Below, piece after piece: positions 3,909 through 31,895 of a stretch of 32,000 bases of DNA. Numbering within the stretch: position 1 is the stretch's first letter; each line of letters opens with the position of its first letter. Made by a program: the position numbers and the translations under genes. Under the pieces are notes generated by a model. That model was not told where the DNA came from. It searched no databases and was given only the letters and a program-made list of their open reading frames with translations. Source of the stretch: Candidatus Methanophagaceae archaeon. GTDB lineage: Archaea > Halobacteriota > Syntropharchaeia > Alkanophagales > Methanospirareceae. Location of the stretch: positions 1,082,728-1,114,727 of the forward strand of contig PQXB01000001.1 of assembly GCA_003194425.1 (NCBI GenBank), written 5' to 3'.

Positions 3909-4982
3909 CCTTTTTACCAAGTACGCCACGACAAACAACAGCCCCGCAACCGCGGCTGCCGCGCCAAACCCGGGTGCTCCTTTTCCTTCGCTCGCGGTCG
4001 TTTTCGCCTTCTCTTCCAATTCTCTCACACGGCTCTTCAGTTCCTCTAGTCCCGCTGGTGACGCCGTTTCTGCTGCTTCCTCTGCTGTAGTCGGGAACTT
4101 GTCCAAAACCGGAATTATGAAGACGCTCCGCTGCGTCACCCCTTCCTCTTCCGGCCCGTACGCACCGACGAACCAAATTCCAGGCTCGTCAAGCGTGTAA
4201 GCGAACTCACCCGCTGCGTTCGTCTTCGTCACCCGCGTGAACATCATCGGCGGGTCGTAAGCGAACTTCTTTTTTGCTTCCTCGACTACCGCGTCGCCCA
4301 CTGCTTTTGTGTGGTACTTTTCTACCTCTACTTCCGCGTCCGCAAGAGCACTCCCGTCGTACAACGCCTTCCCTGTGAAGACAAAGCCTTCCTCCAGACC
4401 GTAGGGTCGTGTGAAAGGCACGATTTCCGCTTTCTGCCCGTGCTCTCCTCCGACCCCGAGTTCCGCGTCCCAGCCTTCCCACACTTCTTCACCGCAGTGA
4501 ATCACCGCCTTCACGTAGTCCGTCAATTTCTCGCCCTCGTCCTTGTACTTCGCAAACACTACCCAGTCGCCCTGCTTGTCCACCGTGAACGAAACCTCGT
4601 ACGCCTTCTTCTCTTCTCCTGGCTCTCCTACTGTTATTTCTGTCGGCGTTAGCACCGTAACCGCACCCTTTGGGTCTCTAACCGAAACCTCGGGAACCGA
4701 AGCCATATCAAAGAGAATGTGCTCGTAGGGGTGCCCCCAAATAACCCAGACGGTCTTTGTCTCGCTCCAATTTGCGATGTAGTCTTCTGGCGTCACTTCC
4801 ATGTCCCCTCCCGGGAAGAGCATCGTGAAGTGCGCACTCGCCACACCCACTGTTCCTGCCACTACCACCGCTACCACTGCTGCCACTGCTGCTCCCAAGA
4901 GTAGCCTTGGTAACGAATTCGTTGCCACTGTTCTCGCTTTTTTTCTACTTTTCAGTTCCTTACCCTCTCTTCTTATTCGCAT
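3897..4982 (-). CDS. NikK-like (DUF4198) extracytoplasmic nickel-uptake protein with PGF-CTERM anchor
   Basis: Signal/TM segment followed by SAHFTMLFPGG...VWVIWGHPYEH (DUF4198-like His-containing N-terminus). Internal beta-sandwich-like segment. C-terminus GAPGFGAAAAVAGLLFVVAYLVKRRER is a PGF-CTERM motif. Confidence 0.65.
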   Translation of the reverse strand: MRIRREGKELKSRKKARTVATNSLPRLLLGAAVAAVVAVVVAGTVGVASAHFTMLFPGGDMEVTPEDYIANWSETKTVWVIWGHPYEHILFDMASVPEVSVRDPKGAVTVLTPTEITVGEPGEEKKAYEVSFTVDKQGDWVVFAKYKDEGEKLTDYVKAVIHCGEEVWEGWDAELGVGGEHGQKAEIVPFTRPYGLEEGFVFTGKALYDGSALADAEVEVEKYHTKAVGDAVVEEAKKKFAYDPPMMFTRVTKTNAAGEFAYTLDEPGIWFVGAYGPEEEGVTQRSVFIIPVLDKFPTTAEEAAETASPAGLEELKSRVRELEEKAKTTASEGKGAPGFGAAAAVAGLLFVVAYLVKRRER

Positions 4983-5055
4983 ATTTTCTTACCTTTATTT
5001 CTTTTTAAAAATCTTCTTATTAAAACTATTTTATATTTCACAAATACCCTAAACC

Positions 5056-6126
5056 CTAAAAGTACCCTTTTCTCCGTCTCCAAAGCAGGTAAATAAAGAA
5101 CGGAGCGCCGAAGAACGCGGTAATTATTCCAACAGGCATTTCACCTAAAACCCGCGCCAACGCGTCGGTCCACGCCAAAAAAATCGCCCCTACCAACGCG
5201 GACGCCGGGAAAAGAATTCGGTGGTCGGGACCGACGAGAATTCGCGTGATGTGTGGAATTATGAGACCCACGAACCCGATTGTTCCCACGAACGCGACTG
5301 CGGAAGCGGTAATGAACGCCGAGAGAATTAACAAGATTTTTTTCACCCCCTCCACATTTATGCCGAGCGTCTGCGCCGACTCCTCGCCGAGCAGCAGCGC
5401 GTTCAGGTCCTTCGCAAAAATGTAAATCAAGCCGAAGCAGAGTAGCACCGGCAGTGCCGTTACTTCCACCTCCCGCCACCTCGCTTTCCAGAGCCCGCCC
5501 ATCAGCCAGAAGAAGATGTTGTGCAAGTCCTTTCCTGCAACAAACATTAGAAACGAGAGAACCGCACCAAAGAACATCGAGACCGCGATTCCAGTGAGCA
5601 ACAAAGAGTCAACAGGAATTCTGCCCCCTTCTCCCGCTCCCGCTCCCGCTCCCCCGCCAGTCCGTGCGATGCTGTAAACCAGAAAAGTGGTAAAGACGGC
5701 GCCCAAGAACGCCAAAAACGGCGTAGTGTAGCCTCCTAAGAACCGCGGGACTACAGTCAGCGAGAGAGCAGCGCCGACCGCAGCCCCAGACGCAATCCCA
5801 ATTATGTACGGGTCTGCCATCGGATTTTTGAAGAGCCCCTGCAGCGTTGTCCCCGCGGTCGCCAACGCAAAACCAACCAACAACCCCAAAAAAATCCGCG
5901 GCAGCCTGATTTGGAAAATTATCGTCTCGTACTTCTGCGGAACCAAAGCCGCAGCGGTCTCGCAGAGCTGCAGTTTGCCGCAGAACAAAGCGACAATTTC
6001 TGACGGCGGCACGTAGACAGGACCGACTGCCGTCGTCAGCACCACCGTAACGGCTAAAATCGCAACCAAGTAAAGCAGCACCAGTCGCCAGTGAAGGAAC
6101 TTCTTAAATTTCATTTCAACAGCCAA
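5056..6126 (-). CDS. FecCD/BtuC-family ABC transporter permease (iron-chelate/corrinoid type)
   Basis: IRLPRIFLGLLVGFALATAGTTLQGLFKNPMADPYIIGIASGAAVG is the FecCD family signature region. Polytopic membrane protein. Contains a GGGAGAGAGEGG insert. Confidence 0.85.
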   Translation of the reverse strand: MAVEMKFKKFLHWRLVLLYLVAILAVTVVLTTAVGPVYVPPSEIVALFCGKLQLCETAAALVPQKYETIIFQIRLPRIFLGLLVGFALATAGTTLQGLFKNPMADPYIIGIASGAAVGAALSLTVVPRFLGGYTTPFLAFLGAVFTTFLVYSIARTGGGAGAGAGEGGRIPVDSLLLTGIAVSMFFGAVLSFLMFVAGKDLHNIFFWLMGGLWKARWREVEVTALPVLLCFGLIYIFAKDLNALLLGEESAQTLGINVEGVKKILLILSAFITASAVAFVGTIGFVGLIIPHITRILVGPDHRILFPASALVGAIFLAWTDALARVLGEMPVGIITAFFGAPFFIYLLWRRRKGYF

Positions 6127-8153
6127 CCAAAGAAAAACCTGAAGATTTTTTCAAATATTGACGGCTTTGGCGGCGGCGCGGCGGCTGCTCTACTTGAATT
6201 TGTCTGCTTGGCTGTCTGCTTTTGAGAATGCGAGGTCGTAGCAGCCGTGCTAAAGTTCGTCTGCGAAGGCGTTGCTCTTGGCGTCGTCGTAACCGCTACT
6301 CTTGGCGTCGGCGTTACCGCTGCTGCGGACGGTGTTGGTGCCGGTGTCGGAGTCGGCGAGCCTTCGGTCTCGTTTCTCGTTTCTAACGCGGCGCAAATTG
6401 CGAAAGTTCCAAACGACGGGCTTCTCGCTGTGTAAAAAACTTTCTCACTGCTTTCTCCTCCTGTCCCTGTCTCGCTCGTGTTCAGCTCTGCCCAAGTTTC
6501 GTTCTCGTCGTCGTAGCGGAACAAGGAGACGGTTTTAGCAGCGGCTTGGGGGTTTAGCGGTTTAGCAGCCAACCACGACTTACTCACGCTGAAGTTCAGC
6601 CGCACCCACTCCACGCTGCCTTCTAAATCCTCTGCAGAGAGGGCGAAGCATTTGTAAGTCGCGAGAGCGAGAGAAGAAGTAGGAGCAGGAGCAGAAGTAG
6701 AAGCAGGACCAGAAGTAGAAGCAGAAGTAGGAGCAGGCTGCTGAGCCGGTTCTACAGAAATGCTCGTAAATTTCACCTCTCCTTCCTCCCCGGCTTTTAC
6801 TCTAATCTCGTCCAGGCAGTCGTAGTCGTCTTCTCCTTCTAATTTCACAACCGCTTCTTCACCTGCTTCAACCGTCTTGTAGTTGTCGTCGTCCTCAACG
6901 GCAGCGAAAAAATCACTGAAATTCTGATGAACAATTTCTACTGCCTCCACCACTCTCGGACCTGGTCTTGATATTATGTCTCCGTCGATTACATAAACCC
7001 GATTATTCTTCACGGCGTCCAGATTCTTCAGCCGCTCGTCGTTCATTATTTGCTCGTACGCAATACTCATCTCGCCCATTCCGCTGTCGCAGATGATAAC
7101 TTGCGGATTCTTTTCAATGAGCTCCTCAAGGCTCATTATAAAATATCCTGTCTTGCCGTCTGCAGCCGCGATGTTTTTGCCGCCTGCGATTTCAATTATC
7201 TCGTCTGCAAATGTCTCCTTGCCCGCGGTAAAGAAGTCGCCGATGTTGTAAAACACCCTCGGTCTTTGCTCTTCTTCCAAGAACTCTGTCTTTTGCTCTA
7301 CCGCTCCTAACCTCCTTCTCAAATCTTCTAAAAGAGACAAAGCCTCCGCCTTGCGTTTCTCAATCGTGCCTACGACTTTTATGTGCCTAAAAATCGCCTC
7401 GATATTCTTCGGATGCATTGCATAAACCTTATAGCCCGACTCCCGCAGGTAATAAATCACACCAGCAGGGTTGCCGTGAGCACCAACGACCAAATCCGGC
7501 TCCAAATCCACAATCTTCTCGAAACTCGGCGTTGAATACCCGCCAATCTTTTTTATCTCTTTCACTTCTGGCGGGTAGTCGCAGAACTCGGTAACGCCGA
7601 CAACGCTCTCGCCTGCACCCACCGCGAATAAAACCTCGGTGCAGCTCGGCGCCATCGAAACCAGCCGCTCGGGTCGCTTTAAAAACCGCAGCTGGTAGTT
7701 TTCAAGCCCCTCCAGTTCACAAGCGTCGTTCTCCTCTCCTACTACCAGCCAGACCGAGAGATTCCAAGTCGCAGACACAGTTTCATTTTCTGCCTCTCCT
7801 ACACCTACTCCCACGACGCTGACATTGTAAATCCCGTACTCTTCGTCCTCAAAGCCAAGAGTAAAATCTGCACTCTCTCCTTCCGATTTTTTCGTCTCCT
7901 CTCCGTTCACCGACCACGACCACTCGTAAACCGTGCCTGCGCTAGAGTCTGAGGAGACGCGGAACTCCACCTCCTTGCTCTCTTCTACTCCGACTTCAAC
8001 TGAAAAAATAGTGGCGTCGTCTTCGGTCACGCTGTTCCATTTCGTGAGGTCGCTGCTTCCAAACGCTGTCCCGAGGACTGTCCCGAAGAGGGTCAGCGGA
8101 ATTAAGAGAGAGAGCAGAAGAAAAGCGACGAAGACTTTAATTTTTGCACTCAT
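6111..8153 (-). CDS. Multidomain cluster-A (BtuF/FhuD-like) substrate-binding protein: N-terminal Ig/PKD-like domain, binding domain, PGF-pre-PGF-like domain, Thr/Pro-rich tail
   Basis: Core RLVSMAPSCTEVLFAVGAGESVVGVTEFCDYP...DLVVG...NPQVIICDSG...NNRVYVIDGDIISRPGPRVVEAVE is typical of PF01497-type binding proteins. Overlaps the permease start by 16 nt. Confidence 0.8.
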   Translation of the reverse strand: MSAKIKVFVAFLLLSLLIPLTLFGTVLGTAFGSSDLTKWNSVTEDDATIFSVEVGVEESKEVEFRVSSDSSAGTVYEWSWSVNGEETKKSEGESADFTLGFEDEEYGIYNVSVVGVGVGEAENETVSATWNLSVWLVVGEENDACELEGLENYQLRFLKRPERLVSMAPSCTEVLFAVGAGESVVGVTEFCDYPPEVKEIKKIGGYSTPSFEKIVDLEPDLVVGAHGNPAGVIYYLRESGYKVYAMHPKNIEAIFRHIKVVGTIEKRKAEALSLLEDLRRRLGAVEQKTEFLEEEQRPRVFYNIGDFFTAGKETFADEIIEIAGGKNIAAADGKTGYFIMSLEELIEKNPQVIICDSGMGEMSIAYEQIMNDERLKNLDAVKNNRVYVIDGDIISRPGPRVVEAVEIVHQNFSDFFAAVEDDDNYKTVEAGEEAVVKLEGEDDYDCLDEIRVKAGEEGEVKFTSISVEPAQQPAPTSASTSGPASTSAPAPTSSLALATYKCFALSAEDLEGSVEWVRLNFSVSKSWLAAKPLNPQAAAKTVSLFRYDDENETWAELNTSETGTGGESSEKVFYTARSPSFGTFAICAALETRNETEGSPTPTPAPTPSAAAVTPTPRVAVTTTPRATPSQTNFSTAATTSHSQKQTAKQTNSSRAAAAPPPKPSIFEKIFRFFFGWLLK

Positions 8154-25829: not shown

Positions 25830-25877
25830 ATATGAGACAAAAGAATGAATTGTAGTAAATATTTATTGTTATTTATT

Positions 25878-26849
25878 ATGAATCTCATCTCGATTTTTGA
25901 CCTCTCGGGTGCGGAAATAGAAGCGCTAGTAGAGAAAGCGGAAGAACTGAAGGCTGAGCGGAAGAAGGGCGTAGAGGGCGTAGAGGGCGTAGAGGGCGTA
26001 GAGGGTGTAAGCGGAAGAGCGAGAAAGGACTTGGAAGGCAGGACGTTGGCACTGATTTTCGAGAAGCCGTCTACTCGCACCCGCGTCTCGTTTGAGGTTG
26101 CGGGGCTGGAGTTGGGCGGGAATGTGTTGAGTCTGAATTGGAACGAACTGCAGTTGGGCAGGGGCGAGCGGGTGCAGGAGACCGCGAAAGTGCTTTCGGC
26201 TTACGTGGACGCTGTTGTGCTGCGGGCATTTCGGCACAGCACGGTGCAGGAGTTCGCGAGACACGCTTCGGCTTCGGTGCCTGTAGTGAACGGGCTGACG
26301 GATTTGGAGCACCCGTGTCAGACGTTGGCGGATTTGATGACGATAAAAGAACGGAAGGGAAGGCTGGCGGGCGTTAAAGTGGCGTGGGTCGGAGATGGGA
26401 ACAATGTCTGCAATTCGCTAATCGGCGGTGCAGCACTTACGGGAATGGAGATTCGCGTGGCGTGCCCGAGAGGCTACGAGCCTGACGAGGGCGTGGTAGA
26501 GAAAGCGAAGGCGTGTGGTTGTGAAGTTCTCGTAACCGATGATGCGGAGGAGGCTGTTGCTGGCGCCGATGTTTTGTACACCGATGTGTGGGTCTCGATG
26601 GGCGACGAGGAGGCGAGCGAGCAGAGGAAAAGGGATTTACAAGACTTTCAAATAAACGCGGATTTGGTGCGGGCTGCGAAGGAGGACGCGATTGTGCTGC
26701 ACTGTATGCCTGTGCACTTGGGCGAGGAGATTACGGAGGCGGTGCTGAACAGCGACCGAGCGGTGATTTTTGAGCAGGCGGAGAACAGGCTGCACGCACA
26801 GAAGGCGCTACTGCACAAACTTTTTAGAAAAAAACAGAAATCTTTTTAA
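25878..26849 (+). CDS. argF: Ornithine carbamoyltransferase
   Basis: FEKPSTRTRVSFE, HPCQ.LAD, TDVWVSMG, HCMP. Start set to MNLISIFDLSG (25878). GVE x4 insert. Confidence 0.9.
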   Translation: MNLISIFDLSGAEIEALVEKAEELKAERKKGVEGVEGVEGVEGVSGRARKDLEGRTLALIFEKPSTRTRVSFEVAGLELGGNVLSLNWNELQLGRGERVQETAKVLSAYVDAVVLRAFRHSTVQEFARHASASVPVVNGLTDLEHPCQTLADLMTIKERKGRLAGVKVAWVGDGNNVCNSLIGGAALTGMEIRVACPRGYEPDEGVVEKAKACGCEVLVTDDAEEAVAGADVLYTDVWVSMGDEEASEQRKRDLQDFQINADLVRAAKEDAIVLHCMPVHLGEEITEAVLNSDRAVIFEQAENRLHAQKALLHKLFRKKQKSF

Positions 26850-26941: not shown

Positions 26942-28468
26942 ATGGCAGCGGCAGAAGGAGAGGAGAAGTTCCCGTTTGAGATAAACCCGATGTACGAGGG
27001 CGAGCGGGTGCGGAAGGCGGGAATGTTTGTGGAGCTGGCCGGGCAGAGCAAGCCGGGGTTTGAGCTGGTTCTCTTTGAGCCCGACCCTGCGAAGATAAAA
27101 GACGGCGAGGTTAGTTTAGTGGGGCCGGACTTGGAGGAGATGCAGGAGGGCGGGAACTACGCTTACGCAATGATTTACAGGGTCACGGGCGAGCAGCTCG
27201 AGAAGGACCTTGAGGCGGTTATTGAACGGCGGAACCACGAGTACCAGTCCTACATTCAGGGCTACATGCACCTGAACCAGCGTGCTGAGATTTGGGTGCG
27301 GATAAGCAAGGACGCGGTGAGGAAGGGGTTGAAGTCGCTGAAGCAGATTGGACGGGCGACGATTCAGCTCTTCAAGTCCGAACTGCCGTTCATCGAGAAA
27401 ATGGCAGTGGAGTTCGTTACCGACGAGGCGGAGGTGGAGAAGCGGTTAGAGGAGGCGAGCCGGATTTACGAGGCGCGGGACGCGAAGGCACGGGGGCTGC
27501 ACGACGAGGATGTGGACGAGTTTTACCAGTGCACGCTTTGTCAGTCGTTTGCACCGACGAACGTCTGCGTTGTCTCGCCGGACAGGTTTGCGTTGTGCGG
27601 TGCAATGAGTTGGTTCGACTCGCGGGCGGCGGCTCGGGTTGACCCCGAGGGACCGAACGCACCAATTCCAAAAGGCGAGTGTCTTGACCCTGTCGGTGGG
27701 GAGTACACGGGCGTTAACGAGGCTGCGGTTCGGCTCTCGAGCGGGGAGTACGACTCGATAAAACTGCACTCGTTCTTTGAGAAGCCGCACACGAGTTGCG
27801 GCTGTTTCGAGGTTGCGGGGTTCTACATTCCCGAAGTCGACGGCGTCGGCTGGGTGCACCGGGGCTCGAGGGTTTCTGACACGCCGATTGGACTGCCTTT
27901 TTCGACGATCGCAGGCTCGGTCGGCGGCGGTAAGCAGGTGCAGGGTTTCCTCGGAATCGGAATTCAATATTTTTACAGCTCAAAATTTATCCAAGCAGAC
28001 GGCAGCTGGCGACGCGTTGTCTGGATGGCTTCGGACTTGAAGGAGCGTGTTGCGGAGGCTATTCCCGCGGAGATGCGAGACCGGATCGCGACCGAGAAGG
28101 ATGTGAAGGATGTAGGAGAGCTGCGGGAATTCTTGCAAAAAGTGGGGCACCCAGTCGTGGAAGGCGTTGTCCGCGCTGTTGACGGCGTACGTGTGACCGA
28201 GGGCTGGGCAGTGGAGGAAGAGGAAGAGGAAGAGGAAGAGGTAGAAGAAGCAGCAAAGGTAGAGGAGGGACCTGTTGAAGTGCCGCAGGCACAGGCAGCG
28301 GCTCAAGTTCCGCTTGCGTCTGCGTCCGCGTTTGTGCCGCCACTGGCGGGGGCAGGTGCGTTCGGCGTTGCGGGTGGAGTGGCTGGTTCTGCACCGATAA
28401 AAATAATTTTGAAGGACGCGGAAATCAAAATCGGGAAAATAATCGTGAAGCGGAAAGAGGGGAAGTAG
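26942..28468 (+). CDS. cdhC: Acetyl-CoA decarbonylase/synthase complex subunit beta (A-cluster, acetyl-CoA synthase)
   Basis: FPFEINPMYEGERVRK... and CTLCQSFAPTNVCVVSPDR..LCGA.SW.D.RAA (A-cluster Cys ligands). Has a C-terminal poly-Glu / Ala-rich extension. Confidence 0.9.
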   Translation: MAAAEGEEKFPFEINPMYEGERVRKAGMFVELAGQSKPGFELVLFEPDPAKIKDGEVSLVGPDLEEMQEGGNYAYAMIYRVTGEQLEKDLEAVIERRNHEYQSYIQGYMHLNQRAEIWVRISKDAVRKGLKSLKQIGRATIQLFKSELPFIEKMAVEFVTDEAEVEKRLEEASRIYEARDAKARGLHDEDVDEFYQCTLCQSFAPTNVCVVSPDRFALCGAMSWFDSRAAARVDPEGPNAPIPKGECLDPVGGEYTGVNEAAVRLSSGEYDSIKLHSFFEKPHTSCGCFEVAGFYIPEVDGVGWVHRGSRVSDTPIGLPFSTIAGSVGGGKQVQGFLGIGIQYFYSSKFIQADGSWRRVVWMASDLKERVAEAIPAEMRDRIATEKDVKDVGELREFLQKVGHPVVEGVVRAVDGVRVTEGWAVEEEEEEEEEVEEAAKVEEGPVEVPQAQAAAQVPLASASAFVPPLAGAGAFGVAGGVAGSAPIKIILKDAEIKIGKIIVKRKEGK

Positions 28469-28496
28469 AGAAACGGAAAGAGGGGAAGTAGAGAAA
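28451..28496. repeat. 23-nt perfect tandem duplication containing the cdhC stop codon
   Basis: cggaaagaggggaagtagagaaa at 28451-28473 and 28474-28496. Stop tag at 28466-28468. Confidence 0.9.
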
Positions 28497-28525: not shown

Positions 28526-29060
28526 ATGAGTGAAATAAGGCACAAAGTGTTTATCTCGTATCATCACGAGGACCAAGATGAAGTAGAGGATTTTATTGAG
28601 ACCTTCGACTACGAGCGTAATGTCTTTATCTCGCGCGCTTGGCATCGCGGACGATATTATCAACAGCACTGACACAGACTATGTAATGCGACGCATTAGA
28701 GAATCGTATCTGAAAGATTCCACCGTAACCATCGTGTTGATCGGTAAATGCACTTGGGCTCGTCGCTATGTCGACTGGGAGATACAAGCGTCGCTCCGAC
28801 ATGGTGAGACGGTCACACCTAACGGATTGTTGGGGATTAAATTACCAAGTTACAATAAGACTAGCTACCCCGACAGGTTTAATAAAAACCTTAAGCAAAA
28901 CGACCAACAAAAAGATTGCTATGCAAGAGTAATTGATTATCCCACACGCAAGGATACTTTAACTAATTGGCTTGAGGACGCTTTCCAAGCCCGCACTAGT
29001 AGATCACATTTCATCGTAAATCCACGAGATAGGTTCAAGTACAACAGGACATGTCCATAA
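28526..29060 (+). pseudogene. ThsB-like / DUF1863 TIR-like domain protein, interrupted by a +1 frame change
   Basis: Own translation from ATG 28526: MSEIRHKVFISYHHEDQDEVEDFIETFDYERNVFISRA..., with a stop at 28670. It continues in the +1 frame (track ORF 28596..29060): ...ALGIADDIINSTDTDYVMRRIRESYLKDSTVTIVLIGKCTWARRYVDWEIQASL...GLLGIKLP. Together these give the TIR-like beta-A (FISYhhxD) and VTxVLIGxxTxxRxWVxYEI pattern seen in Thoeris ThsB. Confidence 0.7.
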
Positions 29061-29066
29061 AAAACT

Positions 29067-29621
29067 ATGCCAAAAAAGCTAACCAGTGTGAAAGTCAGCC
29101 TTAAGTTGCCTTACATTGGCGGAGTCGAAGGAACCTGGGAACCCGACAAGAGCGAGCGAAACGCAGCGTGGGAGATGTACGTTGAACTGATCACTCGCAT
29201 TTCGGTAGCGGAACTAAAGCCTGACGAGGGCTTGCTCCGAGAGGCTCTTTCTTCGCTTCACACTCTCTTTGACACAACCAGGAAAATCCTACGGAAATAC
29301 GGCCCTTCCATCGCGCAGCCGAAGGGCAAAGGCAACGGCAACGGCAATCTCTCGTTTGGCTACCTCGCTGTGGCTGTCCTAAATGTTGTGCTGCGTCCAG
29401 TCTTAGCGAAGTGGCATCCACTACTTCTTGACTACGAAACCACCAAAAAAAGTTCCGTTTCGCGGTTGGAGCACGAGAAACAATGGGATAAAAATGAAGA
29501 ATTACGGCGAGTTCTAAACGAAATCCGCACCGTGCTTATCGAATACGCGAACTTACTTGCACAGGTTGCAGGTGTGCCTCCACTCATCGTTCAAAGAAAA
29601 AATGAAACAAGAGCAGATTGA
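29067..29621 (+). CDS. Hypothetical 184-aa protein, probably helical, no recognisable family; partner of the TIR-like gene
   Basis: ORF begins 6 nt after the TIR-like stop. Its 3' end overlaps the next gene by 20 nt. Has a GKGNGNGN loop. No catalytic motif or clear TM segment recognised. Confidence 0.6.
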   Translation: MPKKLTSVKVSLKLPYIGGVEGTWEPDKSERNAAWEMYVELITRISVAELKPDEGLLREALSSLHTLFDTTRKILRKYGPSIAQPKGKGNGNGNLSFGYLAVAVLNVVLRPVLAKWHPLLLDYETTKKSSVSRLEHEKQWDKNEELRRVLNEIRTVLIEYANLLAQVAGVPPLIVQRKNETRAD

Positions 29622-29892
29622 AAAAATAAAGAAAACGCTCATTGAAGTGTTGAGGAAATATGGAGTGAAAAAGGCTGCTCTTTTTGGCTCTGTCGCAAGG
29701 GGGGAAGCTACTGAAGAGAGCGACATTGACCTGCTGATTGAATTTGAAGGAAGAAAGAGTTTGTTGGATCTTGCGGGTTTAAAATTAGAACTTCAGGAAT
29801 TGCTGAGAAGGCGGGTTGATCTTCTCACTTACAAATCCCTTCACCCGCTCCTCAAGGAGAGGATATTGAGCGAGCAAGAGGAGATTTTATAA
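29602..29892 (+). CDS. mntA: Minimal nucleotidyltransferase (MNT/MntA-type antitoxin)
   Basis: LFGSVARGEATEESDIDLLIEF is the GS-x10-DxD pol-beta NTase motif. Start set to MKQEQIEKIKK (29602). Confidence 0.8.
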   Translation: MKQEQIEKIKKTLIEVLRKYGVKKAALFGSVARGEATEESDIDLLIEFEGRKSLLDLAGLKLELQELLRRRVDLLTYKSLHPLLKERILSEQEEIL

Positions 29893-29893
29893 G

Positions 29894-29971
29894 ATGAAGA
29901 AAGACGCCGAGACATTCATCGAGCATATTTTAGAGTGCGTTGAGTTGATTGAAAAAAATTGTAAAGATTAA
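29894..29971 (+). pseudogene. Truncated HEPN/DUF86 (HepT-like) toxin remnant, 25 codons
   Basis: Own translation: MKKDAETFIEHILECVELIEKNCKD-stop. This resembles the first helix of DUF86 proteins (normally ~110-140 aa). It begins 1 nt after the MNT stop. Confidence 0.5.
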
Positions 29972-30038: not shown

Positions 30039-30542
30039 TGAGTCAAGACAACGGACAGAGTGGGCAACCCCCCGCTTGGGTGCCATAGGCAAAGGTGGGA
30101 GCGTGCTACAAGAAAGGGTGGCACCAACTGTGGAACTACCCTTTAGAACTGCTGCTCATAACAATTGTAGGCTTCGTCATTTCTCCCCCCTCTCACGGCT
30201 TCTCTGCTGCTAAAGAGGTGGAGGGAGCGGGGGCTTATTTTCTCTCCATTTTTGCTTTAGCCTACACGCTTCTGCTTGTCTGGCCCGTTGGCTACGGCAT
30301 TTCGTTCGCCTACCTCAAAGCAGCCAGAGGCGAGCAGCCGAGTGTCAAAGATGTGTTTGACGCGCTTTGACTGTCTTTTTCATCGGCTTGCTGGGAATTC
30401 CTGTTATCTTGGCAGGACTGCTCTGCTTCGTTGTCGGAGTTGTTGTGGCACTTGTGTGGATTCAAATCGCCTCCGCTTCGCTCTACCTCGCAGTAAGCGA
30501 AGAAAAAAGTAAAGATTTAAAAAGGCAGCCAGACAAAGAGTA
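30039..30542 (+). pseudogene. Decayed integral-membrane protein gene (pieces in three frames)
   Basis: Frame a: MSQDNGQSGQPPAWVP-stop, ending just after a C-homopolymer. Frame b: track ORF 30095..30370 (..KKGWHQLWNYPLELLLITIVGFVI...ISFAYLKAARGEQPSVKDVFDAL-stop). Frame c: FIGLLGIPVILAGLLCFVVGVVVALVWIQIASASLYLAVSEEKSKDLKRQPDKE-stop at 30542. Confidence 0.45.
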
Positions 30543-30548
30543 AGCGAA

Positions 30549-31895
30549 ATGGCGAAGAAAATAACCTCAGCGGACCTGGAGGAGCGGCTGGAGAAGCACG
30601 AAGTGGTGGAGTTGGATGGGGTAGAGATAAAGGGCGATTTGGAGTTTGAATTGTCCGCGGCGGGCGGTGTGGCTGTTCCTCCTTCAGTGCTTCAGCAGGC
30701 ACTGCAGTCCGTCTTGGGCGTGCAGTCGTTGGCGCAGGTGGCTCAGGCAGCACTGCAGTCCGTCTTGGGCGGCGGCGTGCAGGCAGGTACAGGCGAGACA
30801 GAGACAGCGAGGAAAATAGAGGCGCAGGAGTTAGCGACGGCGAGGTTTGAAGTTGCGAAGGCGAAGTGGGTGGGGAAGGTAGAAGAGGTTACACTTGGTG
30901 CTACTTCGTCGGACGGTGGCACGAGGGAGAAAGTGGTGAAAATAGGGGGCGAGAAATCGCTGCCGTTCTACAACTTCGACCACAAAATGCCGCACGCACC
31001 AGTGATTTCGGTGGACTGCTTTGACATCCCAATTCCGCTTGCGAAGGCGGTGCGGGGGCACTACGAGGATGTGATGCAGGACCCGGGGGAGTGGGCGAAG
31101 AAGAATGTGCGTGAGTTCGGCGCGGATATGGTCACGATTCACCTAATCAGCACCGACCCGCTGATAAACGACACGCCGGCGCGGGAGGCGGCGAAGACTG
31201 TTGAAGAGGTGCTGCAGGCTGTAAAAGTTCCGATTGTCATCGGCGGGTCGGGGAACCCAGAGAAAGACCCCGCGGTCTTGGAGGCTGCTGCGGAGGCTGC
31301 CGAAGGCGAGCGGTGTCTAATCGCGTCTGCGAACTTGAATATGGACTACAAGCGAATAGCGAACGCGGCAAAGGAGCACGGACACACAATTCTCTCGTGG
31401 ACGCAGCTCGACATAAACGCGCAGAAGACGCTGAACCGCTACCTCTTCAAACTCGGCGTGCCACGGGAAGACATCGTGATTGACCCGACGACCGCGGCAC
31501 TGGGCTACGGTCTGGACTACGCGTTCACTAACATCGAGCGGATGCGAATCTCGGCGCTGAAAGGGGACACTGATTTGGCGTTCCCGATTTCCTGCGGCAT
31601 TACGAACGCGTGGGGTGCGAGGGAGGCGTGGATGAAGAATTCGCCGATTGCCGAAGACTCAGACTGGGGACCGGCGGCTTACAGGGGTCCTTTGTACGAA
31701 ATTATGACTGGGCTGACTCTGGGGGTTGCGGGCGGGGACTTGTTTATGATGATGCATCCCAAGGCTGCGGCTGCGGTCAAGCGCGTGACGCAGATGCTGT
31801 TTGGTGCTGCTGCGAAGGAGGGGGCGGAGGCGGGGGCGGAAGAAGAGGGAAGGAAGATAAAAGTAGAGGATTGGGTAAGTTGGGGCGGTCGGTGA
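30549..31895 (+). CDS. cdhD: Acetyl-CoA decarbonylase/synthase complex subunit delta (corrinoid/Fe-S protein small subunit)
   Basis: WVGKVEEVTLGA...VKIGGEKSLPFYNFD...ADMVTIHLISTDP...PIVIGGSGNPEKDP..LE.AAE...DPTTAALGYG.. is typical CdhD/AcsD. The N-terminal region carries a 51-nt imperfect in-frame duplication. Confidence 0.9.
   Translation: MAKKITSADLEERLEKHEVVELDGVEIKGDLEFELSAAGGVAVPPSVLQQALQSVLGVQSLAQVAQAALQSVLGGGVQAGTGETETARKIEAQELATARFEVAKAKWVGKVEEVTLGATSSDGGTREKVVKIGGEKSLPFYNFDHKMPHAPVISVDCFDIPIPLAKAVRGHYEDVMQDPGEWAKKNVREFGADMVTIHLISTDPLINDTPAREAAKTVEEVLQAVKVPIVIGGSGNPEKDPAVLEAAAEAAEGERCLIASANLNMDYKRIANAAKEHGHTILSWTQLDINAQKTLNRYLFKLGVPREDIVIDPTTAALGYGLDYAFTNIERMRISALKGDTDLAFPISCGITNAWGAREAWMKNSPIAEDSDWGPAAYRGPLYEIMTGLTLGVAGGDLFMMMHPKAAAAVKRVTQMLFGAAAKEGAEAGAEEEGRKIKVEDWVSWGGR

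What the first reader, a model, noticed from the sequence alone, without database searches (positions are those of the whole stretch)
28526..29621. ThsB-like TIR gene paired with an unrecognisable 184-aa partner: candidate non-canonical Thoeris-like module
The reconstructed TIR-like protein has the ThsB/DUF1863 pattern (KVFISYHHED...; VTIVLIGKCTWARRYVDWEIQASL...GLLGIKLP). Known Thoeris systems pair ThsB with ThsA, which is SIR2-SLOG or TM-Macro. Here the gene starting 6 nt downstream encodes a 184-aa, apparently helical protein (AAWEMYVELITRISVAELKPDEG...LRPVLAKWHPLLLDYE...). I can see no SIR2, SLOG, Macro, nuclease or clear TM features in it. Its 3' end overlaps the next gene, which suggests one transcription unit. 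It could be a new effector or sensor for a TIR-generated signal. Caveat: the TIR gene is frame-disrupted in this sequence, so the module may be dead here.
Basis: partly seen in the sequence, partly recalled or inferred. Interest (0 to 1): 0.8.

Follow-up and report, generated by a model that had tools for sequence, protein, structure and literature searches.

The report
Type VI Thoeris locus, thsB frameshifted
The "unrecognisable" 184-aa protein is ThsG, the effector of the recently described type VI Thoeris antiviral system, so this is a new archaeal copy of a known TIR-signalling defence module whose TIR gene is broken in this sequence.

Summary
A ThsB-type TIR gene (28526-29060) is split by a 2-bp deletion in a short (CG)n run. 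A 184-aa ORF starts 6 nt downstream (29067-29621) and overlaps an MNT gene by 20 nt.

The partner gave no match in Pfam, NCBIfam, PADLOC, PHROGs, PDB sequences or Foldseek. It is nevertheless not unknown. It is 58% and 54% identical, over its full length, to the effector genes of two metagenomic Bacillus scaffolds. Yirmiya et al. (bioRxiv, Dec 2025) validated those scaffolds experimentally as type VI Thoeris (TIR + ThsG, signal 2'cADPR).

The window's TIR is 36-48% identical to the validated type VI TIRs of a Gammaproteobacteria scaffold and of E. coli ACN001. Linkage of the family to TIR genes is strong. Of 80 species-level loci, 54 have a candidate TIR ORF in the locus, and Pfam confirms at least 44. 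Fusions occur in both orders.

What remains is an archaeal instance inserted between cdhC and cdhD. It is probably inactive here, although six sister contigs carry an intact thsB. A side result is that the ThsG domain is also fused to patatin, metallophosphatase-SLOG, HTH, TIR and STAND modules.

The parts
28526..29060 (+). thsB (ThsB-type TIR gene), a pseudogene in this sequence. The 5' part is in frame to the stop at 28670-28672. The 3' part is in a shifted frame.
   Evidence: Pfam ThsB_TIR 6.6e-15 and PADLOC ThsB 7e-11. 97% identical to the intact 178-180 aa genes of sister contigs. 36% and 48% identical to validated type VI TIRs.
28632..28638 (+). Frameshift site: a (CG)3C run that is (CG)4C in all four sister contigs aligned, giving a 2-bp deletion.
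   Evidence: DNA alignment A2.
28779..28781 (+). Codon of the catalytic Glu (the E of VDWEI). It is out of frame with the start codon because of the deletion.
   Evidence: Read directly from the sequence. The Glu is invariant in the alignment of 54 TIR segments next to X genes.
29067..29621 (+). thsG-like effector gene (called 'X' in the report), 184 aa, intact. It is TM-less, with a beta-hairpin followed by a helical bundle.
   Evidence: 58% identity (E 2e-75) and 54% identity (E 2e-64), over the full length, to the effectors of validated type VI Thoeris scaffolds Ga0102589_1001697 and Ga0268252_1000056. AF2 pLDDT 82.8. All family-conserved residues are present.
29331..29348 (+). GNGNGN-coding repeat. 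It adds about 5 residues in the loop between helices 2 and 3 and is specific to this lineage.
   Evidence: Alignments A1 and A4 and BLASTP. The loop has low pLDDT.
29602..29892 (+). MNT (MntA-like nucleotidyltransferase antitoxin) gene, overlapping thsG by 20 nt. It belongs to a neighbouring toxin-antitoxin module and is not part of Thoeris.
   Evidence: Pfam NTP_transf_2 4.9e-20, NCBIfam MntA 6.9e-16, PADLOC PDC-S09 3e-31.
29894..29971 (+). 25-codon stub of the HepT toxin gene. About 265 bp are deleted relative to sister contig L007.
   Evidence: L007 has a 112-aa HepT-like gene. blastn shows the gap at L007 6890-7156.
28451..28496 (+). Exact 23-bp tandem duplication spanning the cdhC stop codon, directly upstream of the defence insert.
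   Evidence: 2 exact copies found against 0 expected by chance.
26942..28468 (+). cdhC (acetyl-CoA decarbonylase/synthase beta subunit). Left flank of the insert.
   Evidence: PDB 9c0s_E, E 1.3e-179.
30549..31895 (+). cdhD (ACDS delta subunit, corrinoid Fe-S protein small subunit). Right flank of the insert.
   Evidence: PDB 4djd_D, E 4e-69, and 9fzy_E.

Best explanation
The locus is a type VI Thoeris system (thsB + thsG), acquired horizontally and inserted between cdhC and cdhD of a probable archaeon.

In its intact form, as seen in six sister contigs, the proposed mechanism is as follows. The ThsB TIR protein senses viral infection and converts NAD+ into a cyclic ADP-ribose isomer. That isomer is most likely 2'cADPR, as in the tested type VI systems. 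The signal binds the ThsG protein, which is modelled in the literature as a homo-hexameric tube with basic pockets between protomers. Binding causes growth arrest, so the virus cannot complete its cycle.

Shown here: homology of both genes to validated type VI components, the operon arrangement, the catalytic Glu, and strong family-wide linkage to TIR genes.

Inferred: the identity of the signal for this TIR clade, and how a TM-less ThsG stops growth. The authors of the system say the second point is unknown.

In this particular sequence a 2-bp deletion truncates ThsB after 48 residues, ahead of the catalytic Glu. If the deletion is real the system cannot signal, and thsG is an orphan.
For: Homology
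- X is 58% and 54% identical, end to end, to the genes adjacent to the TIRs of Ga0102589_1001697 and Ga0268252_1000056.
- Table S2 of 10.64898/2025.12.03.692087 lists these scaffolds as defending B. subtilis, type VI, effector 'DUF6650'.
- The paper shows phage-induced 2'cADPR and 2'cADPR-induced growth arrest. A June 2026 preprint reproduces this.
- The window's TIR is 36% identical (E 2e-22) to the validated Gammaproteobacteria type VI TIR and 48% identical (E 5e-21) to that of E. coli ACN001.

Bridge locus L106
- It carries a TIR 68% identical to the validated Gammaproteobacteria TIR, followed by a TM + X-domain protein. hhalign places that protein in the X family at 97.9%, E 5e-13.
- It also carries a second ThsB + X pair like the window's.

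Linkage
- 23 of 80 GTDB species loci have a same-strand TIR gene within 130 nt.
- 54 of 80 have a TIR-like ORF in the locus. Pfam confirms TIR_2 in 44, ThsB_TIR in 23, TIR in 25 and SEFIR in 4.
- 20 of 42 loci fetched with the Bacillus-type TIR also carry an X-family ORF.

Thoeris-like pattern
- Several loci have 2-3 TIR genes and a single X (L049, L059, L068, L070, L073, L097).
- X is more conserved than its TIR partner: mean pairwise identity 58% against 45%. The two sets of identities are correlated, r = 0.72.

Acquisition
- GC is 46% in the module against 58% in cdhC.
- The module alone is shared at 81% nucleotide identity with a Methanophagales MAG.
Against: - The paper labels the effector Pfam DUF6650 (PF20355). 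A Pfam-A scan of X at E <= 1, and of 96 diverse relatives at E <= 0.01, gave no DUF6650 hit. Precomputed Pfam annotation is empty for every X gene seen. So either the published label comes from a cluster representative or the model differs. Membership rests on direct identity to the tested proteins, not on the Pfam family.
- The window's TIR belongs to a different clade from the TIRs that partner the TM-less ThsG proteins actually tested; there is no BLAST similarity.
- A TIR 73% identical to the window's sits in Clostridium beijerinckii with SLOG-cluster-2 proteins and no X.
- thsB is frameshifted here.
Confidence: 0.85

Rival explanations
1. The roles are reversed. The TIR protein is the NAD+-depleting effector, and X is its sensor, adaptor or regulator rather than a receptor of a TIR-made signal.
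For: - The preprint concedes that in unverified configurations TIR might act as the effector.
- X occurs at the C terminus of a BTAD-STAND protein, where sensor domains usually sit.
- X is fused to HTH domains.
- It is not known how TM-less ThsG could be toxic.
Against: - In type VI systems the TIR alone produces 2'cADPR on infection.
- Exogenous 2'cADPR arrests growth of system-bearing cells.
- The sponges Tad1 and MoTad2, and the 2'cADPR hydrolase XopQ, abolish defence.
- One X serves 2-3 TIR genes in several loci.
- X is more conserved than its TIR partner, the reverse of what is expected for a virus sensor.
- X is fused N-terminally to enzymatic effectors: patatin and metallophosphatase.
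Confidence: 0.07
2. The frameshift is a sequencing or assembly error at the CG run, and the module is fully functional in the organism.
For: - The deletion lies in a dinucleotide repeat.
- Six of six sister contigs from other samples have an intact gene.
- Elsewhere the window's gene shows only a handful of substitutions relative to them.
Against: - A 2-bp loss in a (CG)4 run is also a typical real slippage mutation.
- The neighbouring HepT gene is decayed in this lineage, so gene loss in this insert is under way.
- No read data are available to decide.
Confidence: 0.4
3. X is a HEPN-like RNase or some other enzyme, and is toxic through catalysis rather than through signal-triggered assembly.
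For: - There is a conserved R110-x6-H117 on one face of helix 3, together with N106 and E124.
- Tandem X-X proteins exist, reminiscent of HEPN dimers.
Against: - Foldseek against the PDB and BFVD returned only generic helical bundles, with best E 0.5 and 0.016 and no E <= 0.001.
- No HEPN Pfam family hit in X or in 96 members.
- No profile hit to PDB sequences.
Confidence: 0.05

Closest known systems
Type VI Thoeris, TM-less form (TIR + ThsG 'DUF6650'; Bacillus scaffolds Ga0102589_1001697 and Ga0268252_1000056; Yirmiya et al., bioRxiv 2025)
   Same: The effector is the same protein family: 54-58% identity over the full length, the same size (171-173 against 184 aa), and no TM segment. It lies immediately downstream of a TIR gene with a spacer of a few nucleotides.
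   Different: The TIR partner is a ThsB_TIR-clade protein with no BLAST similarity to the TIR_2-type TIRs of those scaffolds. The host is a probable archaeon. thsB is frameshifted. There is a 5-residue GNGNG loop insertion.
Type VI Thoeris, TM form (E. coli ACN001, E. coli S1, Gammaproteobacteria scaffold Ga0209396_1000232)
   Same: The TIR is of the same clade (36-48% identity). The effector core domain is homologous: a TM-X protein next to a TIR 68% identical to the validated one aligns with the X family at 97.9% hhalign probability.
   Different: Those effectors carry N-terminal transmembrane helices and presumably act on the membrane. The window's ThsG has none.
Type I and type II Thoeris (ThsA SIR2-SLOG; TM-Macro)
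   Same: The logic is the same: a ThsB TIR signal generator, a single downstream effector, and often several thsB genes per effector.
   Different: There is no SIR2, SLOG or Macro domain. The signals differ: 3'cADPR or His-ADPR, against 2'cADPR.
Type III-like Thoeris with SLOG-cluster-2 proteins (Clostridium beijerinckii locus L093)
   Same: It contains a ThsB 73% identical to the window's.
   Different: The effector candidates there are SLOG/TIR proteins. No ThsG is present.

Membership tests
Type VI Thoeris (ThsB + ThsG) | A TIR-domain ThsB gene with the catalytic glutamate | tested here: met
   Pfam ThsB_TIR 6.6e-15. The Glu of VDWEI is at 28779-28781 and is invariant in 54 aligned TIRs. 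The gene is frameshifted in this window but intact in 6 sister contigs.
Type VI Thoeris (ThsB + ThsG) | An adjacent effector homologous to an experimentally validated ThsG | tested here: met
   58% identity (E 2e-75) and 54% identity (E 2e-64), over the full length, to the effectors of Ga0102589_1001697 and Ga0268252_1000056. Both are listed as defending in Table S2.
Type VI Thoeris (ThsB + ThsG) | A two-gene operon arrangement conserved across taxa | tested here: met
   The spacer is 6 nt here and 6-14 nt in 11 other ThsB-X pairs. 23 of 80 loci have a same-strand TIR within 130 nt. Pfam confirms TIR_2 in 44 of 54 candidate TIR ORFs.
Type VI Thoeris (ThsB + ThsG) | The effector carries Pfam DUF6650 (PF20355), as annotated in the paper | tested here: not met
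   No DUF6650 hit for X at E <= 1 or for 96 relatives at E <= 0.01. Precomputed Pfam annotation is '-' for all X genes. The paper warns that its labels come from cluster representatives.
Type VI Thoeris (ThsB + ThsG) | The TIR makes 2'cADPR on infection, and 2'cADPR triggers ThsG-dependent growth arrest | not testable with these tools
   Reported for related systems only. Two of five tested TIRs gave no detectable 2'cADPR.
Type I Thoeris | A ThsA effector with SIR2 and SLOG domains | tested here: not met
   No SIR2 or SLOG hit in X.
Type II Thoeris | An effector with TM helices and a Macro domain | tested here: not met
   No Macro hit. The best 19-residue hydropathy window scores 1.8. It contains the conserved N106 and R110 and is not consistently hydrophobic across the family.
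HEPN superfamily | A four-helix HEPN fold with a catalytic Rx4-6H motif | tested here: inconclusive
   A conserved R110-x6-H117 is present. There was no HEPN structure or family among the Foldseek, Pfam or PDB hits.

The most novel reading that the evidence does not exclude
The ThsG domain is not in itself a toxin. It is a portable receptor and oligomerisation module for a TIR-made nucleotide, comparable to SLOG, SAVED, CARF or STING.

The domain architectures support this. It occurs alone, with N-terminal TM helices, in 2-3 tandem copies, and fused to patatin, to calcineurin-like phosphoesterase plus SLOG cluster 2, to XRE or GntR HTH domains, to TIR in both orders, and to a BTAD-STAND NTPase.

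Under this reading, TM-less ThsG proteins such as the one in this window would act by signal-induced assembly, either recruiting or sequestering a host factor. The fused forms would be further, untested Thoeris-like effector classes that respond to the same signal. The family would also be more widespread in archaea than the two systems reported, with Methanophagales, Methanobacteriaceae, Heimdallarchaeota and Halobacteriota loci found here.
Probability: 0.4. Interest if true: 0.55.

Novelty: new member of a known kind. Interest (0 to 1): 0.3.

Why it matters
- It shows that a gene with no match in any of the family libraries searched can still be assigned, by fetching the actual validated loci.
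- It adds an archaeal instance of type VI Thoeris, lodged inside the core acetyl-CoA decarbonylase/synthase gene cluster of a probable ANME-like organism (Methanophagales is the nearest named relative of the module). The original study found only two archaeal cases.
- It combines the E. coli-type ThsB clade with the TM-less ThsG, a pairing the paper did not test.
- The domain-fusion survey gives concrete handles on an open question the authors state themselves: how a TM-less ThsG stops growth.
- The conserved polar stripe gives obvious residues to mutate: R44, R72, N106, R110, H117 and E124.

Tried and rejected
Searches that found nothing for X
- Pfam, NCBIfam, PADLOC and PHROGs scans of X gave nothing, as did Pfam, PADLOC and PHROGs scans of diverse relatives.
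- PDB sequence searches with two profiles gave nothing.
- Foldseek of a good AF2 model against the PDB and BFVD returned only generic helical bundles.

Routes to a DUF6650 sequence
- tblastn of the E. coli ACN001 TIR against plasmids found a decayed locus and a Listeria TM protein next to a similar TIR. That family (A6) aligns with X only weakly: hhalign 3%, E 0.014. It aligns with the bridging TM-X protein at 89.7%.
- tblastn with a Bacillus-type TIR against plasmids gave no ThsG locus.
- The first metagenome scan, with a single TIR, found nothing. The second, with a 4-sequence alignment, found the validated scaffolds.

Other dead ends
- The stored Table S1 of the preprint is truncated at 'DUF2270', so the list of effector classes could not be read.
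- The AF2 model of a natural TIR-X fusion (P0122) gave a confident X domain, a poor TIR domain and a disordered 45-residue linker. It therefore says nothing about TIR-X contacts.

Readings rejected
- X as an antitoxin of a TIR toxin. The HTH fusions fit this, but the patatin and metallophosphatase fusions and the loci with several TIR genes and one X do not.
- X as an Aravind-type effector-associated adaptor domain. Only 3 of 80 loci carry two X-containing genes.

Full report
**What is in the sequence**

Between cdhC (26942-28468; PDB 9c0s_E, E 1e-179) and cdhD (30549-31895; PDB 4djd_D, E 4e-69) lies an insert of about 2 kb. Its G+C is lower than its surroundings: 46% in the module against 58% in cdhC. 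Its contents are:

- a TIR gene (28526-29060);
- a 184-aa ORF, called X below (29067-29621);
- an MNT antitoxin gene (29602-29892);
- a 25-codon stub of its HepT toxin partner (29894-29971);
- two small hydrophobic ORFs.

The TIR matches Pfam ThsB_TIR at 6.6e-15 and PADLOC ThsB models at 7e-11. It is split between two frames.

Six near-identical metagenome contigs carry the same cdhC-TIR-X-MNT arrangement with an intact TIR gene of 178-189 aa. Alignment of four of them shows that the window lacks 2 bp in a CG run at about 28632-28638. The catalytic Glu (VDWEI, codon 28779-28781) is present but lies downstream of the shift. The spacer between TIR and X is 6 nt, and X overlaps MNT by 20 nt.

**First characterisation of X**

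X gave no hit in Pfam, NCBIfam, PADLOC or PHROGs. It gave none to PDB sequences.

AlphaFold2 produced a confident model (pLDDT 82.8, pTM 0.79). It shows a beta-hairpin (residues 8-24) followed by four long helices and one short helix. Foldseek against the PDB and BFVD found only generic helical bundles, none with E <= 0.001.

The family is nevertheless large and strikingly conserved.
- The 5.8-billion-protein set holds 1301 relatives, and the best 120 are 72-99% identical across bacteria and archaea.
- There are 1454 cluster representatives at 50% identity.
- Nearly invariant residues are W35, E40, T43, R44, E59, S63, R72, N106, R110, P111, W116, H117, E124, E137 and W140.
- N106, R110, H117 and E124 lie on one face of helix 3.

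**Linkage to TIR**

Neighbourhoods annotated with Pfam showed a ThsB_TIR gene directly upstream of X in every case with enough flanking sequence. These include a bacterial MAG, a Clostridia MAG, a Halobacteriota archaeon and a mobile element.

A scan of one genome per GTDB species returned 80 loci from many phyla.
- 23 have a same-strand TIR gene within 130 nt of X, in either order.
- 54 have a TIR-like ORF within the locus. Pfam confirms TIR_2 in 44, ThsB_TIR in 23, TIR in 25 and SEFIR in 4 of these.
- The alignment of these 54 TIR segments has one invariant Glu.
- Archaeal cases include Methanophagales, Methanobacteriaceae and Heimdallarchaeota MAGs (L014, L042, L076).

Direct fusions exist in both orders: TIR-X in P0122, P0125 and P0200, and X-TIR in P0213.

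Several loci hold two or three TIR genes and a single X (L049, L059, L068, L070, L073, L097). This is the known Thoeris pattern of several thsB genes per effector.

Across 14 ThsB-X pairs the pairwise identities of the two proteins are correlated (r = 0.72). X is the more conserved partner, with mean identity 58% against 45%. That is expected for a conserved effector paired with a diversifying sensor.

**Identification**

The literature search found Yirmiya et al. (bioRxiv 10.64898/2025.12.03.692087). That paper defines Thoeris types V-XI.

Its type VI pairs a TIR with an effector annotated 'DUF6650', with or without N-terminal TM helices, and names the effector ThsG. The paper reports:
- the TIRs make 2'cADPR on infection;
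- exogenous 2'cADPR arrests growth of cells carrying the system;
- the sponges Tad1 and MoTad2 abolish defence;
- AF3 models ThsG as a hexameric tube with basic pockets between protomers;
- how TM-less ThsG is toxic is unknown.

Table S1 showed that type VI TIRs from E. coli and from a Gammaproteobacteria scaffold resemble the window's TIR. BLASTP gives 48% and 36% identity.

Pfam does not match X to DUF6650, so I fetched the validated loci themselves. A metagenome scan with an alignment of the four Bacillus-type type VI TIRs recovered Ga0102589_1001697 (100% match) and Ga0268252_1000056.

In both scaffolds the gene adjacent to the TIR is an X-family protein of 173 and 171 aa. By gene number it is the effector listed in Table S2. 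These proteins are 58% (E 2e-75) and 54% (E 2e-64) identical to the window's X over the full length. X is therefore ThsG.

A bridging locus, L106, holds two pairs side by side.
- One is a ThsB + X pair like the window's.
- The other is a TIR 68% identical to the validated Gammaproteobacteria TIR, followed by a TM + X-domain protein. hhalign places that protein in the X family at 97.9%, E 5e-13.

Six of 32 N-terminally extended X-family representatives have a predicted TM helix. This mirrors the 'with or without TM' dichotomy of ThsG.

Of 42 loci fetched with the Bacillus-type TIR, 20 also carry an X-family ORF. ThsG therefore partners at least two unrelated TIR clades.

**How it most likely works**

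In the intact alleles, ThsB senses infection and produces a cyclic ADPR isomer. By analogy this is most likely 2'cADPR. ThsG binds it, probably in inter-protomer pockets lined by the conserved Arg and His residues, and arrests growth.

- Shown here: homology, gene arrangement, the catalytic residue, and linkage.
- Taken from the papers: the chemistry and the phenotype.
- Inferred: that this ThsB clade, when paired with a TM-less ThsG, uses the same signal. [quoted passage not shown]

In this window the 2-bp deletion removes everything after residue 48 from the reading frame, so the system is probably inactive and thsG is orphaned. No other TIR is encoded in the 32 kb. The deletion could still be an assembly error at the repeat. 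The decay of the neighbouring HepT gene shows that this insert is eroding in the lineage.

**Loose ends**

- The published 'DUF6650 (PF20355)' label does not reproduce. There is no Pfam hit for X at E <= 1 or for 96 relatives at E <= 0.01. Precomputed Pfam annotations are empty everywhere. DefensePredictor (Science 2026) also lists DUF6650 as newly implicated in defence.
- A ThsB 73% identical to the window's sits in Clostridium beijerinckii with SLOG-cluster-2 and TIR proteins and no ThsG. This TIR clade therefore serves more than one effector type.
- The ThsG domain is promiscuous. It is fused to patatin (Mesorhizobium plasmid), to calcineurin-like phosphoesterase with or without SLOG cluster 2, to XRE or GntR HTH domains (8 of 96 scanned, plus others), and to a BTAD-STAND NTPase. 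It also occurs in 2-3 tandem copies. This is the architecture pattern of a signal-receptor module rather than of a toxin. It is the most novel reading left open.

**Verdict**

The system type was described and tested in a December 2025 preprint, so this is a new, probably defective, archaeal member of a known kind. It has moderate side interest for the question of how ThsG works.

Noticed in passing
window 28451-28496: An exact 23-bp tandem duplication (CGGAAAGAGGGGAAGTAGAGAAA x2) spans the cdhC stop codon, directly upstream of the defence insert. It may be a scar of the insertion event or a slippage product.
   Followed up: partly
window 29894-29971 (compare L007 6828-7166): The HepT toxin gene of the MNT/HepT pair is reduced to a 25-codon stub by a deletion of about 265 bp. 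The MNT antitoxin is left alone. Gene calls show no HepT gene in the other five sister contigs (L008-L012); only L007 is intact.
   Followed up: partly
window 29331-29348: A GGC-AAC repeat encodes GNGNGN in the loop between helices 2 and 3 of ThsG. This insertion of about 5 residues was seen only in this lineage.
   Followed up: partly
P0176, P0255, P0261, P0171, P0193, P0229; L101 2896-5472; P0148; P0141, P0185, P0250; P0157, P0170, P0189: The ThsG domain occurs fused to metallophosphatase (with or without SLOG cluster 2), patatin, a BTAD-STAND NTPase and XRE-type HTH domains. It also occurs as 2-3 tandem copies. The preprint text read here does not mention any of these.
   Followed up: partly
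L093 (Clostridium beijerinckii, GCA_013294405.1) 3945-7626: A ThsB 73% identical to the window's is flanked by a 678-aa TIR_2 + SLOG-cluster-2 protein and a 345-aa TIR-domain protein (Pfam TIR/TIR_2), with a TPR-S protein downstream and no ThsG. The same TIR clade is therefore wired to a different effector set.
   Followed up: partly
all X genes (window 29067-29621, L001-L012, L105-L109): The effector family that the literature calls 'DUF6650 (PF20355)' gets no Pfam hit, either in my scans or in the precomputed annotations. This is a discrepancy between the published label and the profile library.
   Followed up: partly
window 30095-30543: Two small overlapping hydrophobic ORFs (91 and 58 aa) lie between the defence insert and cdhD. 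Sister contigs have a 110-aa gene called in the same place. Their function is unknown.
   Followed up: no
window 25845-26849: An ornithine/aspartate carbamoyltransferase-like ORF has a VEGVEGVEGVEGV repeat near its N terminus.
   Followed up: no
L100 1711-2499 (Listeria monocytogenes NCTC7974) and L099 814-1086 (E. coli plasmid p13TMH22-1): TM proteins encoded immediately upstream of type-VI-like TIRs form a family of their own, with no Pfam hit. The family aligns with the TM-X bridge protein at 89.7% hhalign probability but with the X family at only 3%. It is probably a divergent ThsG branch. The E. coli copy is decayed.
   Followed up: partly
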